This document shows, one piece after another, positions 7,153 through 14,911 of a stretch of 38,200 bases of DNA. The stretch's first letter is position 1. Every line of letters begins with the position of its first letter. The notes under the pieces were generated by a model, which was not told the DNA's origin, made no database searches, and was given only the letters and a program-made list of their open reading frames with translations. Source of the stretch: Escherichia phage sortregn; sequence record MN850588.1. One strand, 5' to 3'. Position numbers and translations under genes: made by a program.

Positions 7153-7411
7153 GACTTCGCGCCGGGAGTTATGGGAGGCGGCGCAAGCCGCCGAACTGGA
7201 CGGCATGATCAGCGCAGTCTCCCGCGTGTTCGGCAAGGAGGCGATCGCCGACATATCGATCGAGACGCCGGACGGCGAGATGTACCTGAACAACCCGGAC
7301 CCGCACCACTGGCGCGTCGTGCCTGGGACTAAAGGCGGAAAGAACGCTCTCAAAGACGCGATCGCCGACACCAAAAACCGGAAGCACCTCAAAGGGGGAT
7401 CTCGTGGGTAA
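7136..7411 (+). CDS. hypothetical protein
   Basis: 91 aa ORF overlapping neighbours. Confidence 0.4.
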   Translation: MVIARKTSRRELWEAAQAAELDGMISAVSRVFGKEAIADISIETPDGEMYLNNPDPHHWRVVPGTKGGKNALKDAIADTKNRKHLKGGSRG

Positions 7412-7796
7412 AGTAACAGCGAAGATTATCGGATGGACTGACGAGCAGGACGCGGAACTGGTTCGCCTGGCTGGAACCATGCCAGCGCCGGACCTGGCGA
7501 AGAAGATAAAACGCAACTTCCGCCAGATGCAGGTCCAGGCGTCGAAGCTGGGGATCTCCCTGGCGTACCGCAGGACGTACACGCAATGGACAGCGGAGGA
7601 GGACCGGAAGCTGGTCCGCTTCTGGGAGGATAAACTGACCCCGGAGGACGTGGTGGAGATCGCAGAGACTACGGGGATCTATGAAGTGACCCGCGACGAA
7701 CTGACACACGAGCACGTCGCGACCTGGCTCGACAAATCGCGCCCGGCAGTACGCGGACGCCTGGCAAAATTCAAGAAAGAGGGGAAAATAGCATGA
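7404..7796 (+). CDS. putative DNA-binding protein with two W-x-x-E-(E/Q)-D helix motifs (GcrA/Myb-like)
   Basis: GTG start after GGGGG SD; GWTDEQDAELVRLAG and QWTAEEDRKLVRFW resemble GcrA N-terminal / Myb-SANT DNA-binding repeats. Confidence 0.45.
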   Translation: MGKVTAKIIGWTDEQDAELVRLAGTMPAPDLAKKIKRNFRQMQVQASKLGISLAYRRTYTQWTAEEDRKLVRFWEDKLTPEDVVEIAETTGIYEVTRDELTHEHVATWLDKSRPAVRGRLAKFKKEGKIA

Positions 7797-7895
7797 CTGA
7801 CTTACGCGGAAGTAAATACGTTATATGGGGCGTAATCGCAGCCAGCGCCGCGCTGTGGGCTTTAATCGGTTTTGGCGTGTCGATGGTACTCTAAA
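7793..7895 (+). CDS. possible small membrane protein (33 aa)
   Basis: ATGA overlap with preceding gene, hydrophobic sequence, terminator follows; below ORF-track size cutoff. Confidence 0.25.
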
Positions 7896-7930
7896 AAAAA
7901 GGGCCGCTTAAAAAGCGGCTCCTTTCGTTT
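7894..7930. terminator. bidirectional intrinsic terminator
   Basis: A8, GCCGCTT-AAA-AAGCGGC hairpin, then T-rich tract. Confidence 0.6.
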
Positions 7931-7990
7931 AAACGCCAGAGATGATCTACAATGCCCCGGCAGTATAACCAAACAAGAGAGGACCCGACA

Positions 7991-8788
7991 ATGGGGAATT
8001 TTTGGACCTACCACGAGAACACCCAGCGCGGCGGGATCGAACTGGGCCGAGTAATCGACCCGGCGAAAGCCTCGCGCCCGGTGATCTACCTAGAATCAGA
8101 TCCGCCAGGTCTGGACGCGGCGAAGGTTTCCGCCTTCATGCCGTACTACGTTTACACTCCGATGTCCTTCACTCAGGACTTGCCGGGAGTGGCTGGTGGC
8201 GATGCCGCCGCGACCTTCGTCCCTGGGGGGAGCACGTTCTCCGCGACGGTCGAAGTCGCCGGAGGTCAAGCGCCGTTTACTTATCAGTGGTACAAGTTTA
8301 GCGGCGGAGTCGGAACGGCGATCACGCTGGCGCAGAACGCCACGGCCCAGTCGAAGGTATTCCAGATCACCAACTACACCGCAGCGGCTCAACCCGGATC
8401 CGGTAACGGTGATTGGTATGTTGTCGTAACCGACGCGACCGGGGCCACGCTCCAGTCTCAGCGCATCCGCACGAAACAGGCGATCGCCTACTCCGTCAAC
8501 CTACCGACGACCGACACCTGGACCGTCGGGACCGCCGACGCCTTAACCGTCACCGTGAACGCGGCTACGGGCCTTGCGCCGTATACTCATGAATGGTTTA
8601 AGGATGGCGTTTCTCAGGGGCCGGGGACGTCGAGCGGGACGGGGAACGCGACCTCCACGCTATCGAAGGCAAGCCCGGCAGCGGGCGACGCTGGCGTGTA
8701 TTATTGCATTTCCACCAGCGCCAACACGAACCCGCCGAAAACCATCCAGAGCATTTCTTGCACTGTAACCGTTAACCCGGCAGCATAA
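7991..8788 (+). CDS. Ig-like domain protein (two Ig-like repeats)
   Basis: ORF 7952..8788, start moved to ATG 7991 after AGAGAGGA; repeats FTYQWYKF...DWYVVVTD and YTHEWFKDG...GVYYCIS resemble Ig I-set strands. Confidence 0.6.
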   Translation: MGNFWTYHENTQRGGIELGRVIDPAKASRPVIYLESDPPGLDAAKVSAFMPYYVYTPMSFTQDLPGVAGGDAAATFVPGGSTFSATVEVAGGQAPFTYQWYKFSGGVGTAITLAQNATAQSKVFQITNYTAAAQPGSGNGDWYVVVTDATGATLQSQRIRTKQAIAYSVNLPTTDTWTVGTADALTVTVNAATGLAPYTHEWFKDGVSQGPGTSSGTGNATSTLSKASPAAGDAGVYYCISTSANTNPPKTIQSISCTVTVNPAA

Positions 8789-8798
8789 GGAGCCGACT

Positions 8799-9011
8799 AT
8801 GTTTTATCACTCGCAGGACCTACCGGAGCGCGGCGGCGTTCTACTGACGAAGATCGCGGATCCTGGTTCGGCCCAGGTACAAGCGCGGGATCTGGTCTGG
8901 CTGGATGCTGACCCGACGGGCGGATCGTGGGAGCCACTCCCGGCAGTGTTCGACAAGGTGGACGCCTCCGGGCTGGAGAATCACCTCTCCTACTTCATCC
9001 CATACGCATAA
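8799..9011 (+). CDS. hypothetical protein
   Basis: 70 aa ORF with AGGAG SD, same operon as Ig-like gene. Confidence 0.45.
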   Translation: MFYHSQDLPERGGVLLTKIADPGSAQVQARDLVWLDADPTGGSWEPLPAVFDKVDASGLENHLSYFIPYA

Positions 9012-9040
9012 AAAAGGGGGCCAATCGGCCCCCTGTTTAC
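9010..9040. terminator. bidirectional terminator between convergent genes
   Basis: A6, GGGGGCC-AATC-GGCCCCC hairpin, then TGTTTAC. Confidence 0.65.
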
Positions 9041-9558
9041 TGCTGACGCTCCACGGCGTCGTAATTCACTTCGCAGACCTCCCCGGCGGTGATCGCCTTC
9101 TCCGCTATATCAGCATACCGTCGAGCAGCTTCTCCAGTCCCTCGGAGCAAGTCGGAATACATTCGGGCGGTCTTTTCCCCTGACGCCCTTCCGAGGGCAG
9201 CGGTCTGATCAGCGGCTTCGCGTCTGGCGTTCTCTTTGGCGGCTCGTTCGAGCAACCGATCAAGGGCAGCACCAGCAGCAGCAGAAGCGGCGCGAGCTTT
9301 TGCGGCCTGTTCGTTCGCATATTTTACGGACTCCTCGCGGGCAATGGCCCGGCCTTGTTCAATGATACGGGCGGCGGCTTGTGCGTTCGCTTCCTGGGTG
9401 GATTCCTTCGCGATCCGAGCATTGTCGCGAGCGGTCCAGCCCCGGTCCGTCCAGGCCGAGCCAGCCCAGAAAGATCCCCCCAGCGCCAGCAGCACGACAA
9501 CGACGAGCAGCAGCGATCGCCAGTGAGTCGAAAGGAACACGCGGAGGGCGGCGATCAT
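9037..9558 (-). CDS. Rz-like i-spanin
   Basis: N-terminal TM segment LLLVVVVLLALGG, coiled-coil rich; start overlaps endolysin stop (ATGA); embedded lipoprotein ORF. Confidence 0.6.
   Translation of the reverse strand: MIAALRVFLSTHWRSLLLVVVVLLALGGSFWAGSAWTDRGWTARDNARIAKESTQEANAQAAARIIEQGRAIAREESVKYANEQAAKARAASAAAGAALDRLLERAAKENARREAADQTAALGRASGEKTARMYSDLLRGTGEAARRYADIAEKAITAGEVCEVNYDAVERQQ
9105..9320 (-). CDS. Rz1-like o-spanin lipoprotein, embedded out of frame within Rz
   Basis: Signal peptide with lipobox LIGC, proline-rich mature part, fully nested in Rz gene. Confidence 0.55.
   Translation of the reverse strand: MRTNRPQKLAPLLLLLVLPLIGCSNEPPKRTPDAKPLIRPLPSEGRQGKRPPECIPTCSEGLEKLLDGMLI
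9473..9483 (-). repeat. CTGGGGGGATC 11-mer copy (sense strand of Rz gene)
   Basis: Exact match on minus strand; frame-checked against Rz residues L26-G-G-S29. Confidence 0.85.
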
Positions 9559-10034
9559 TCGTCTGCAACCTTACCGCCAGCGGCGCGGAAGTAGCCCAGG
9601 AAGTCCTCGAAAGTCTCCGTTCGCTGACCGTATGGGGAGCCAGGCAGGGAGGCCCAGATGGTCCGGCATTTCTTCACGGCGTCCTTGATCCGGCCCGCGT
9701 CGATGTCGTCCAGCGCTTTACGCTCGCTGATCTGCTGGAGGGCGATCTGGTCCTGTGATGCCGGAGAGAAGTCCGGGAGTCCAAGCTGTTTTTTGTACAC
9801 GTCATAATAGCGGCTTAACAACTGGTAGCGCCCGGCGGCGGTTGAATTGATCCCCAGCTTCGGCAGCTTTACGAGGCGGTTCGGATGCTTCGAGTAGTCG
9901 CTGAACAGGGAGCCGCCCACGATCACGTCGTAGCCGTGATTGCGCGTCTGCTGGCGTCCGTTGTCTGTTCCCTCGCCTACCGCGATCGCGTCCAGGAATG
10001 CCTTACGCTGGGGCGTGACTTCAAATTTTGCCAT
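9555..10034 (-). CDS. endolysin, phage lambda R-like lytic transglycosylase
   Basis: 159 aa; QRKAFLDAIAVGEGTDNGRQQTRNHGYDVIVGG and GRYQLLSRYYD closely resemble lambda R. Confidence 0.9.
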   Translation of the reverse strand: MAKFEVTPQRKAFLDAIAVGEGTDNGRQQTRNHGYDVIVGGSLFSDYSKHPNRLVKLPKLGINSTAAGRYQLLSRYYDVYKKQLGLPDFSPASQDQIALQQISERKALDDIDAGRIKDAVKKCRTIWASLPGSPYGQRTETFEDFLGYFRAAGGKVADE

Positions 10035-10789: not shown

Positions 10790-11026
10790 TTACCTCTTGC
10801 CTTTGACCTGGAGCCGCTGACGACGGCCCCGCGTTTTGTTGTTGTACTCCTCGTGGGACAGTAGATCCCACGTTTCCCCCTCGTCCCACGTCACGAGCCG
10901 CCAGCTATAGCCCACGTTGAACGCTAACACCTTGCCGAAACCCCGGAGGCGCTTCGGTGACAACTCCCGCGCATAGTACCGCGCCAGAATGTCGTCGGCC
11001 TTCCGCTGGACCTTCTCCGGGATCAT
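10790..11026 (-). CDS. hypothetical basic protein
   Basis: 78 aa ORF, ATG start, overlaps next gene. Confidence 0.45.
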   Translation of the reverse strand: MIPEKVQRKADDILARYYARELSPKRLRGFGKVLAFNVGYSWRLVTWDEGETWDLLSHEEYNNKTRGRRQRLQVKGKR

Positions 11027-14656: not shown

Positions 14657-14911
14657 CCGGGGCGTGTGTTGGTAACGAGTAACACCCCCCCTTATAGGGG
14701 GGGATGTAACGTGTTACCGCAACCCACAAGGCCGAAAACATAGTTTTTTATGTGTACTGTTACCGACAAGCGACCGTAATCAAATCAATCATTTATGTGT
14801 GATTCGGTAACGGGGAAAGTAGCGAATCGGTCGCGGGGAAATCGGGGGGTAAAAATCGGGGGTGACCCCCGACAAAATCCCCGCCAAATAATCATTGATA
14901 AGTGATGCGAA
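14657..14911. promoter_or_regulatory. repeat-rich non-coding region, candidate replication origin/regulatory region
   Basis: 255 bp non-coding after replicative ATPase gene: C7-TTATA-G7 hairpin 14685-14703, six (G/A/T)GTAAC sites, TTATGTGT twice, three AAATCGGGG-like repeats, GGGGG-TGA-CCCCC palindrome. Confidence 0.4.

What the first reader, a model, noticed from the sequence alone, without database searches (positions are those of the whole stretch)
7894..9040. Terminator-flanked moron encoding an Ig-like domain protein plus a 70-aa ORF
Two-gene unit (7991-8788, 8799-9011) bounded by bidirectional terminators, with a TACAAT-like hexamer upstream, lying between the early rightward operon and the convergent lysis cassette. 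The larger protein has two Ig-like repeats with Y-x-W-F/Y-K and G-V-Y-Y-C strand signatures and no evident signal peptide. Autonomous promoter-gene-terminator units in phages often carry host-interaction, exclusion or accessory virion functions. An Ig-like protein outside the structural operon is unusual for a P22-like phage.
Basis: partly seen in the sequence, partly recalled or inferred. Interest (0 to 1): 0.6.

Follow-up and report, generated by a model that had tools for sequence, protein, structure and literature searches.

The report
Ig-like phage decoration gene pair
This is the variable, hairpin-bounded slot of a lytic coliphage with a P22-type virion; it holds a probable Hoc/pb10-like surface protein (a small anchor domain plus two Ig-like domains) and a 70-aa free-standing copy of that anchor, a known kind of accessory gene with a pairing not described before.

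Summary
ORFs 7991-8788 (265 aa) and 8799-9011 (70 aa) lie between two stable hairpins, 7901-7921 and 9015-9034. The window is Escherichia phage sortregn (Murrayvirus), a lytic phage with a P22-type coat, portal and tailspike.

The large protein has a roughly 62-aa all-beta N-terminal domain and two I-set Ig domains (AlphaFold pLDDT 92.7). It matches PHROG "Hoc-like head decoration" at 7e-38. Its nearest solved relatives by sequence are N4 gp17 and T5 pb10.

It is not a presence/absence moron. An Ig gene fills this slot in all 15 related lineages examined, and its base composition matches the genome. The slot is a cassette-exchange site: nucleotide homology to congeners stops at 7967 and resumes at about 9006.

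The new point is that the 70-aa ORF is a real gene (dN/dS about 0.2) and a stand-alone paralogue of the N-terminal domain (hhalign 97.6-99%). It occurs in 7 of 7 lineages whose large protein has a divergent N-domain, and in 0 of 8 lineages with the canonical one.

Most likely this is a two-part virion decoration: the N-domain anchors, the Ig domains project outward, and the small protein partners the anchor. Virion location and binding are inferred, not shown.

The parts
7893..7930 (.). Upstream hairpin (stem-loop 7901-7921), with A8 on its 5' side and CTTTCGTTT on its 3' side. It is the terminator of the rightward early/middle operon and possibly bidirectional.
   Evidence: (top-ranked site).: -18.1 kcal/mol on the plus strand and -20.4 on the minus strand, z about -4.7. 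The core GGGCCGC..GCGGCTCCTTTCGTTT is conserved in Murrayvirus, Sortsnevirus, Skarprettervirus and C130_2 despite low overall similarity.
7948..7953 (+). TACAAT, a -10-like hexamer. It is a candidate promoter element, not a demonstrated one.
   Evidence: Read from the sequence. Conserved in Murrayvirus and Sortsnevirus relatives, and replaced by TATCAT in Skarpretter and C130_2. There is no -35 match and the scan does not call it.
7968..9005 (+). Exchangeable cassette: the stretch without nucleotide homology to the other Murrayviruses (ST231, IME_EC2). It contains the ribosome-binding site, the Ig gene and the small gene.
   Evidence: In blastn, homology ends at 7967 and resumes at 9006-9008, with flanks 86-93% identical. 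Megablast covers only the first 168 nt of the query in IME_EC2, KMB41 and sortsyn, and the first 168 nt plus a short 3' piece (20% of the query) in ST231.
7977..7983 (+). Shine-Dalgarno GAGAGGA for the 7991 start codon.
   Evidence: Read from the sequence. A GAGGA is kept at the same distance in the close relatives, with GAGG in Kc166B, Skarpretter and C130_2.
7991..8788 (+). sortregn_13, 265 aa. It comprises an N-terminal all-beta domain (aa 1-62, nt 7991-8176), Ig-like domain 1 (aa about 67-165, nt 8189-8485) and Ig-like domain 2 (aa 166-265, nt 8486-8785). It is a probable Hoc/pb10-like virion decoration protein.
   Evidence: Pfam Ig_3 and SprB. PHROG 2973 'Hoc-like head decoration' at 7.1e-38. 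AlphaFold pLDDT 92.7. Foldseek against PDB and BFVD. PDB sequence hits to N4 gp17 and T5 pb10. Domain mosaicism.
8787..8792 (+). Shine-Dalgarno AAGGAG for the small gene, overlapping the stop codon of the Ig gene. The intergenic gap is 10 nt.
   Evidence: Read from the sequence. Gaps of 10-15 nt occur in all seven pairs.
8799..9011 (+). sortregn_14, 70 aa. It is a stand-alone paralogue of the N-terminal domain, proposed here as the anchor partner.
   Evidence: blastp against the large protein: E 2e-6. hhalign of the small-protein family against the N-domain families: 97.6-99.0% probability. dN/dS of 0.18 and 0.22. AlphaFold gives the same strand order, pLDDT 72.9. Nine family members always sit directly downstream of the Ig gene wherever the upstream DNA is present.
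9009..9040 (.). Downstream hairpin (stem-loop 9015-9034) shared with the convergent lysis cassette. It is a strong terminator for the minus strand (T6) and has a weaker tail on the plus strand.
   Evidence: (best-ranked site).: -22.6 and -24.0 kcal/mol, z -5.2 and -5.6. The Rz-like DUF2514 gene ends at 9037 on the minus strand.

Best explanation
The unit is the accessory virion-decoration locus of a lytic phage with a P22-type capsid.

The 265-aa protein most likely works like T5 pb10, Sf14 gp20 or T4 Hoc. Its small N-terminal all-beta domain (aa 1-62) fastens it to the virion surface, most probably the capsid. Its two rapidly exchanged Ig-like domains project outward and make weak, low-specificity contacts with glycans on host cells or in the environment.

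The gene sits in a recombination slot bounded by two conserved hairpins, so Ig domains and whole cassettes are swapped between related phages.

The 70-aa protein is a free-standing paralogue of the anchoring domain. It is co-transcribed with the large gene and translated from its own ribosome-binding site. It acts together with the large protein's divergent N-domain, most likely as a hetero-oligomeric partner or adaptor at the attachment site.

Shown here: the domain architecture, the Ig folds, homology of the small protein to the N-domain, purifying selection on the small gene, strict co-occurrence, cassette exchange and the P22-type virion module. Inferred: virion location, the capsid as the binding site, outward display, glycan binding, and the physical partnership of the two proteins.
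For: (1) Ig architecture and family. Pfam Ig_3 scores above its cut-off and PHROG Hoc-like matches at 7e-38. AlphaFold gives pLDDT 92.7. Foldseek finds I-set Ig proteins, with the N4 capsid decoration gp17 at rank 3. PDB sequence hits are N4 gp17 (9e99) and T5 pb10 (5lxk, 8zvi).

(2) The layout matches solved decoration proteins. In Sf14 gp20, T5 pb10 and their relatives the capsid-binding domain is N-terminal and the Ig domains follow (PMC11821841). T4 Hoc combines a conserved capsid-binding domain with variable Ig domains (PMC10385173 abstract).

(3) The conservation pattern fits an anchor plus a display module. The canonical N-domain averages 68% identity across genera whose coat proteins are 61-84% identical to sortregn's coat. 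The Ig domains are mosaic: Ig1 is 74% identical to one set of relatives and Ig2 is 70-73% identical to a different set.

(4) GAP227-type Autographiviridae carry the same Ig modules on a different N-terminal region. This is as expected if the N-terminus is specific to the virion type.

(5) In Kc259-like phages the pair directly follows the tailspike gene, and in GAP227 the Ig gene follows the terminase gene. Both are late structural contexts.

(6) There is no export signal and no defence-family hit.

(7) The small protein is homologous to the N-domain families (hhalign 97.6-99%). Its dN/dS is 0.18-0.22.

(8) The small gene is present in 7 of 7 lineages with a divergent 'type-A' N-domain and absent in 8 of 8 lineages with the canonical N-domain.

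(9) In one contig the small-type domain carries its own Ig domain and is the only gene in the slot (P0038/L017). The small type can therefore serve as an anchor by itself.
Against: No proteomic, cryo-EM or genetic data were found for any Murrayvirus, Sortsnevirus or Skarprettervirus. Virion association is therefore only inferred.

In the Murrayvirus genome layout the gene lies about 9 kb from the terminase gene, at the end of a DNA-metabolism operon, so late expression is not evident.

Related proteins have been annotated as tail or neck-whisker proteins. One solved relative is named 'putative neck whiskers protein' (9occ).

The 7-versus-8 co-occurrence counts lineages that are not phylogenetically independent. 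No complex prediction could be run.
Confidence: 0.55

Rival explanations
1. The protein has the same architecture but sits on the neck or tail rather than the capsid. The N-domain would dock onto the portal, tail-adaptor or tailspike region as a collar or whisker, and the small protein would be a second collar subunit.
For: Homologues are annotated 'neck whiskers protein', 'tail protein' or 'major tail subunit'. PDB 9occ, a 'putative neck whiskers protein gp24' of 238 aa, aligns over the Ig region. In Kc259-like phages the pair directly follows the tailspike gene. Kc166B and Kc237 particles were described as having a collar (PMC8402661).
Against: These annotations are transferred by similarity of the promiscuous Ig domains alone. 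Sf14 gp20, deposited as a 'tail protein', proved to be a capsid decoration. The solved relatives with the best sequence E-values are capsid decorations: N4 gp17 and T5 pb10. A P22-type tail machine already looks like a collar in negative stain (my own knowledge).
Confidence: 0.2
2. The small protein is not a structural partner. It is either a chaperone or assembly factor for the Ig protein, as with the fibre-assembly genes found downstream of fibre genes. Or it is an Ig-less competitor that occupies the same virion sites and so sets how many Ig arms are displayed.
For: It sits immediately downstream with its own ribosome-binding site. It shares only the first 40 or so residues with the N-domain. 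The small-type domain can anchor an Ig domain on its own (P0038/L017), so it may bind the same kind of site.
Against: It matches no known chaperone family in Pfam, PHROGs or NCBIfam. A pure competitor would not explain why the large protein's N-domain is strongly divergent in every lineage that has the small gene.
Confidence: 0.17
3. One reading: this is a moron with its own promoter and terminator, whose products act inside or on the infected cell (exclusion, host interaction) and are not part of the virion.
For: Hairpins lie on both sides and a conserved TACAAT lies upstream. In Murrayvirus the unit is outside the structural operon. The sub-slot downstream of the Ig gene does take variable cargo, such as the unrelated 154-aa ORF in L015.
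Against: The Ig gene is present in all 15 related lineages examined, and its composition matches the genome. It has no signal peptide, lipobox or membrane segment and no defence-family match. No promoter is called. In other genome layouts the gene lies inside the late structural block. As far as I know, Ig-like domains in phages have been found in structural proteins (Fraser et al. 2006, from memory).
Confidence: 0.06
4. The 70-aa ORF is a non-functional remnant: the 5' end of a former Ig gene left behind by cassette replacement.
For: It is homologous to the 5' part of Ig genes. It lies at a recombination hot spot.
Against: dN/dS is 0.18 and 0.22 in two independent pairs. There are nine intact members down to 40% identity, with invariant motifs (DPTG.W, C-terminal Y) and a conserved length of 70-73 aa. 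Each has its own Shine-Dalgarno sequence. No Ig-coding remnant follows the stop codon.
Confidence: 0.02

Closest known systems
T5 pb10 and Sf14 gp20 (Hoc-like decoration proteins with an N-terminal capsid-binding domain followed by Ig-like domains)
   Same: The domain order is the same: a small non-Ig N-terminal domain followed by one to three Ig-like domains. Sequence similarity covers the Ig part (5lxk and 8zvi at E about 3e-5; 9c2d hit by close relatives). The number of Ig domains varies between relatives, as reported for the Sf14 gp20 family.
   Different: The N-terminal domain has no detectable sequence similarity to their capsid-binding domains, and a fold search with the 70-aa paralogue's model found nothing either. 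The capsid here is P22-type, not T5- or Moogle-type. A second gene encodes a free copy of the anchor. Capsid binding has not been demonstrated here.
T4 Hoc
   Same: It combines a conserved anchor with variable Ig-like domains and is a non-essential accessory surface protein. The protein falls in PHROG families named 'Hoc-like head decoration'.
   Different: Hoc carries its capsid-binding domain at the C-terminus and has three Ig domains. There is no homology outside the Ig fold.
Coliphage N4 gp17
   Same: It is the best PDB sequence hit (9e99_J, E 1.7e-5) and ranks third in Foldseek. It is an Ig-like decoration protein of a podophage.
   Different: [quoted passage not shown] It has no separate non-Ig anchor and no paired small protein.
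Dec of phage L (the known decoration protein of P22-type capsids)
   Same: It is an accessory protein added to a P22-type capsid.
   Different: From my own knowledge, Dec is an OB-fold trimer that binds quasi-3-fold sites. The present protein is predicted to be Ig-like, and Dec did not appear among the PDB sequence hits.
Morons of lambdoid phages (promoter-gene-terminator insertions)
   Same: The unit is bounded by hairpin terminators at the junction of two transcription units. The sub-slot after the Ig gene takes variable cargo.
   Different: The Ig gene is always present, its composition is native, and no promoter is demonstrated. It behaves as a conserved but hypervariable locus, not as an insertion.

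Membership tests
Hoc/pb10-like Ig-domain virion decoration proteins | One or more Ig-like (I-set, Ig_3 or Big-type) domains | tested here: met
   Pfam Ig_3 at 37.7 bits against a cut-off of 30, in two stretches. AlphaFold pLDDT 92.7. Foldseek finds I-set proteins at E about 1e-9.
Hoc/pb10-like Ig-domain virion decoration proteins | A separate terminal domain that binds the capsid | tested here: inconclusive
   A conserved non-Ig N-terminal domain exists (68% mean identity across genera; strands at 4-10, 15-20, 31-33, 47-51 and 59-62). It matches no known capsid-binding domain, and binding cannot be tested here.
Hoc/pb10-like Ig-domain virion decoration proteins | Physical presence on the capsid surface of purified virions | not testable with these tools
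   No proteomics or cryo-EM was found for this phage group.
Hoc/pb10-like Ig-domain virion decoration proteins | Sequence membership of a curated Hoc-like family | tested here: met
   PHROG 2973 at 7.1e-38 over residues 35-265, and PHROG 4069 at 3.9e-17. The name is an annotation, not a tested function.
Moron (autonomous promoter-gene-terminator insertion) | Present in some genomes and absent from closely related ones | tested here: not met
   The Ig gene occupies the slot in all 15 related lineages examined. Only the small second gene is variably present.
Moron (autonomous promoter-gene-terminator insertion) | Own promoter | tested here: inconclusive
   TACAAT at 7948-7953 is conserved, but there is no -35 hexamer and no plus-strand site is called. 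Transcript mapping is needed.
Moron (autonomous promoter-gene-terminator insertion) | Own terminator | tested here: met
   The hairpin at 9015-9034 has z -5.2 on the plus strand. It is shared with the convergent lysis cassette, and its plus-strand U-tail is weak.
Moron (autonomous promoter-gene-terminator insertion) | Base composition different from the surrounding genome | tested here: not met
   The unit has 61.3% GC and GC3 of 72-73%, against a genome GC of 59.3% and coat-gene GC3 of 73.0%.
Fibre-assembly chaperones encoded downstream of fibre genes (considered for the 70-aa ORF) | Homology to a known chaperone family | tested here: not met
   No Pfam, PHROG, NCBIfam or PDB match. The ORF is instead homologous to the N-domain of the upstream protein.
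   Pfam P22_CoatProtein 6.2e-71, P22_portal 5.3e-158, Phage_stabilise 1.5e-135, Head_binding 5.1e-34. The coat is 71-74% identical to those of Sf101 and CUS-3.

The most novel reading that the evidence does not exclude
This would be a two-component decoration system on P22-type capsids. A free-standing 70-aa anchor-domain paralogue (type B) is the obligatory adaptor or hetero-oligomeric partner for an Ig-bearing protein whose own anchor domain (type A) has diverged and can no longer attach alone. The anchor is a previously undescribed small all-beta fold confined to this phage group (12 hits at E <= 0.001, one of them a spurious repeat protein, among 1.84 billion cluster representatives).
Probability: 0.3. 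Interest if true: 0.55.

Novelty: new variant of a known kind. Interest (0 to 1): 0.4.

Why it matters
Ig-like decoration proteins are thought to tune where phages linger, for example on mucus, host surfaces or in aggregates. They are also used as display scaffolds.

If this reading is correct, it adds three things:
- The first Ig-type decoration for the well-studied P22-type capsid.
- A new and very small anchor domain.
- A natural split between an 'anchor-only' gene and an 'anchor plus display' gene.

The split would give a simple genetic handle on how decoration occupancy is set. It could also offer a compact tag for attaching cargo to P22-like particles.

The hairpin-bounded slot is a clean example of cassette and domain shuffling between otherwise collinear lytic phages. 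None of this changes basic phage biology, and the main gene is already labelled 'Hoc-like' in RefSeq.

Tried and rejected
- Rfam on 7300-9600 returned only sub-threshold noise. The conserved upstream hairpin is not a known RNA family.
- A shared late-promoter motif. The TACAAT context and the hairpin tail are not repeated elsewhere in the genome above chance.
- Defence or anti-defence function. There were no PADLOC or NCBIfam hits.
- Proteomic or structural literature on Murrayvirus, Sortsnevirus, Skarprettervirus or the Kosakonia phages. None was found. The IME_EC2 paper is not held.
- Identity of PDB 9occ ('neck whiskers gp24'). It could not be traced to a paper. P0039, which has the same length, is not that protein.
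- Fusion of the two ORFs by frameshifting. They are in different frames, with a stop codon, a 10-nt gap and a separate Shine-Dalgarno sequence, so this was rejected.
- Remnant or pseudogene status of the small ORF, rejected by dN/dS and conservation.
- The word-indexed search with the N-domain profile found only three small proteins. The exhaustive search was needed to see the whole family.
Full report
IDENTITY OF THE WINDOW. The region is 99.6% identical to Salmonella phage Lumpael, genus Murrayvirus. The two proteins are exactly sortregn_13 (265 aa) and sortregn_14 (70 aa) of Escherichia phage sortregn. That genome is listed as 38,200 bp, 59.3% GC, Murrayvirus (PMC7552041), which equals the window's length and GC. 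The phage is a lytic podovirus. Its virion module is nevertheless P22-type: Pfam P22_CoatProtein 6e-71, P22_portal 5e-158, Phage_stabilise (gp10-like) and a tailspike with the P22 head-binding domain. PHROGs adds scaffold and ejection proteins. The coat protein is 71-74% identical to those of the temperate P22-like phages Sf101, Kapi1 and CUS-3.

THE OBSERVATION. ORFs 7991-8788 and 8799-9011 exist as described. RefSeq starts the Lumpael homologue at the ATG inside TACAATG (window 7952). However, a GAGAGGA Shine-Dalgarno lies seven bases before 7991, the GenBank sortregn protein starts there, and homologues and the paralogue align from that methionine. The hairpins at 7901-7921 and 9015-9034 are the two best terminator-like sites in the first 19 kb. 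They fold far better than shuffled controls (z -4.6 to -5.6). Both carry their clean T-run on the minus strand, and the plus-strand tails are interrupted. The downstream hairpin is primarily the terminator of the convergent lysis cassette: DUF2514 Rz-like, endolysin and a holin of the Phage_holin_3_1 family. TACAAT at 7948-7953 is present and conserved in close relatives. It lacks a -35 hexamer, and the scan does not call a promoter there. The Ig signatures are confirmed. There is no hydrophobic N-terminus.

WHAT THE LARGE PROTEIN IS. Pfam finds Ig_3 twice, plus a SprB repeat. PHROGs places the protein in 'Hoc-like head decoration' families, with phrog_2973 at 7e-38. An AlphaFold model built on 34 homologues is confident (pLDDT 92.7). 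It shows a short all-beta N-terminal domain (strands 4-10, 15-20, 31-33, 47-51, 59-62) followed by two Ig sandwiches. Foldseek against PDB returns tandem I-set Ig proteins, with the N4 capsid decoration gp17 at rank 3. Against viral models it returns Sortsne, a Cronobacter phage and a T5-like 'decorating protein'. By sequence, the nearest solved chains are N4 gp17 (9e99) and T5 pb10 (5lxk, 8zvi). Close relatives also hit Sf14 gp20 (9c2d). Sf14 gp20 was deposited as a 'tail protein' and turned out to be a Hoc-like capsid decoration. That paper notes that in these proteins, except T4 Hoc, the capsid-binding domain is N-terminal (PMC11821841). The present architecture is the same.

NOT A PRESENCE/ABSENCE MORON BUT A CASSETTE SLOT. 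An Ig gene occupies the same position in every lineage examined. That position is at the end of the rightward operon, directly before the convergent lysis cassette.
- Murrayvirus: ST231, IME_EC2.
- Sortsnevirus: Sortsne.
- Skarprettervirus: Skarpretter.
- Hungariovirus: C130_2.
- Kc166B.
- Several 40-42-kb metagenomic contigs.

In Kc259-like phages the gene directly follows the tailspike gene. In the autographivirus GAP227 it follows the terminase gene. Base composition is native.

What varies is the sequence. Nucleotide homology between sortregn and its congeners ST231 and IME_EC2 runs at 86-93% up to 7967. It then vanishes and resumes at 9006-9008. The cassette, from the ribosome-binding site to the stop codon of the small gene, has therefore been exchanged between conserved hairpins.

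Within the protein the domains are mosaic. Ig1 is 74% identical to one set of relatives (P0006-P0010). Ig2 is 70-73% identical to a different set (P0011, P0018). The N-domain is at most 33% identical to all relatives except one.

The upstream hairpin core GGGCCGC..GCGGCTCCTTTCGTTT is conserved across four genera that otherwise share little nucleotide similarity. This fits a functional terminator or insulator that doubles as a recombination anchor.

THE SMALL ORF. It is a paralogue of the large protein's N-terminal domain. blastp gives 33% identity over 40 residues at E 2e-6, and the same holds within every other pair. Profile-profile comparison of the small-protein family gives 97.6% probability (E 3.5e-12) against the canonical N-domain and 99.0% (E 2.3e-18) against the divergent N-domains. 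The AlphaFold model (pLDDT 72.9) has the same strand order, with a low-confidence insertion at residues 42-61.

It is a real gene. dN/dS is 0.18 for sortregn against a 79%-identical metagenomic relative, and 0.22 for Kc259 against its relative. Nine members down to 40% identity keep their length, a DPTG.W motif and a C-terminal tyrosine. Each has its own Shine-Dalgarno sequence 10-15 nt after the Ig gene's stop codon.

An exhaustive profile search of 1.84 billion cluster representatives found only 12 hits at E <= 0.001, one of them a spurious repeat protein. The domain is therefore confined to this phage group. It has no Pfam, PHROG, NCBIfam or PDB counterpart.

THE PAIRING RULE. N-domains fall into three types.
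- Canonical (MGFWHRYYRPDLLGWKVTRI...): 68% mean identity across genera.
- Divergent 'type A': carried by the sortregn-like and Kc259-like large proteins, and only 25-44% identical to the canonical type and to each other.
- Small 'type B'.

Every one of seven lineages with a type-A large protein has a type-B small gene immediately downstream: sortregn/Lumpael, L010, Kc259, L011, L020/21, L022/23 and L024. None of eight lineages with the canonical N-domain has one. Taken at face value this is 1 in 6435 by my own arithmetic, although the lineages are not independent.

The divergence of type A does not track the capsid. The sortregn coat is 81-84% identical to those of IME_EC2 and ST231, which carry the canonical N-domain.

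In one contig (L017) a type-B domain is fused to a single Ig domain and is the only gene in the slot. Type B can therefore stand alone as an anchor, whereas type A was never seen without type B.

MECHANISM PROPOSED. The large protein is a pb10/gp20/Hoc-like accessory surface protein of a P22-type virion.
- The N-domain attaches it, most likely to the capsid.
- The Ig domains are displayed and exchanged freely. They probably give weak glycan adherence, as proposed for Hoc; this step rests on established knowledge of Hoc and was not tested here.
- The 70-aa protein works together with the type-A N-domain, most simply as an adaptor or hetero-oligomeric partner at the attachment site.

The architecture, homology, selection, co-occurrence and cassette exchange are shown. 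Virion location, binding site, display and partnership are inferred. I put 0.55 on this overall: about 0.7 on virion decoration and about 0.4 on the partnership.

RIVALS.
- Neck or tail whisker location (0.2). Similarity-derived annotations and 9occ support it, but these labels follow the promiscuous Ig domain.
- The small protein as a chaperone or an Ig-less competitor (0.17).
- A non-virion moron acting in the cell (0.06). This is disfavoured by ubiquity, native composition, the lack of an export signal and the late-operon position in other layouts.
- A dead remnant (0.02). This is rejected by selection and conservation.

NOVELTY AND SCORE. The main gene is already labelled 'Hoc-like head decoration' in RefSeq by family transfer, so the finding as submitted is largely ordinary. 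Three points appear to be new:
- An Ig-type decoration locus for P22-type capsids. As far as I know, Dec of phage L is the only characterised decoration for them.
- An undescribed anchor domain.
- The strict pairing of a divergent anchor with a free-standing anchor paralogue.

I rate it a new variant of a known kind, with interest 0.4. No experimental data exist for this group, and the decisive tests are virion mass spectrometry, cryo-EM of deletion mutants and binding assays.

Noticed in passing
window 7793-7894 (+): A 33-aa hydrophobic mini-ORF (MTDLRGSKYVIWGVIAASAALWALIGFGVSMVL) overlaps the stop codon of the upstream gene (ATGA) and ends just before the hairpin. It is annotated in Lumpael and ST231, and its 3' end is conserved in relatives. 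It has no Pfam hit.
   Followed up: partly
window 7991->7962 and 7919->7893 (minus strand): A sigma-70-like site (TTGTCG-18-TATACT) on the minus strand points at the minus-strand T8 terminator. It could yield an antisense RNA of about 50 nt over the Ig gene's leader. The -35 lies in the variable cassette and is not conserved in ST231 or IME_EC2, so this is probably chance.
   Followed up: partly
window 14660-14900: The non-coding stretch after the primase/helicase gene holds a C7-TTATA-G7 inverted repeat, several GTAAC/GTTACCG words and AAATCGGGGG direct repeats. It may be an origin or a regulatory region.
   Followed up: no
window 10790-11026 (-); L010 6958-7200; L015 5632-5834: Homologues of this 78-aa ORF, which lies just beyond the lysis cassette, carry a precomputed Pfam ParE_like hit. 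A toxin-like fold in a lytic phage is unexpected.
   Followed up: no
L015 3401-3865 (Enterobacter bugandensis assembly contig LEDQ01000026.1, 42.7 kb): A whole phage genome of this group sits as a contig in a bacterial assembly. It carries an unrelated 154-aa ORF between the Ig gene and the lysis-cassette terminator. That ORF has no significant NCBIfam hit (best E 0.037, far below the cut-off) and no PADLOC hit. The sub-slot therefore does take moron-like cargo.
   Followed up: partly
window 7952 vs 7991: There is a start-codon discrepancy between RefSeq Lumpael gp25 (278 aa, starting inside TACAATG) and GenBank sortregn_13 (265 aa). The apparent conserved 'MPGQY...HEDKIM' extension in relatives is explained by the conserved -10-like DNA and the GAGGA Shine-Dalgarno sequence.
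   Followed up: yes
P0024 and P0026 (sortkaff-type, 333 aa) in alignment A2: Some Sortsnevirus relatives carry a third Ig-like domain appended at the C-terminus, and P0041 carries an extra domain after the N-domain. The number of Ig domains therefore varies within the family.
   Followed up: partly
whole window (38,200 bp) vs Lumpael (41,126 bp): The sortregn record is about 3 kb shorter than its 97-99% identical relative, so it may be incomplete or carry a deletion.
   Followed up: no
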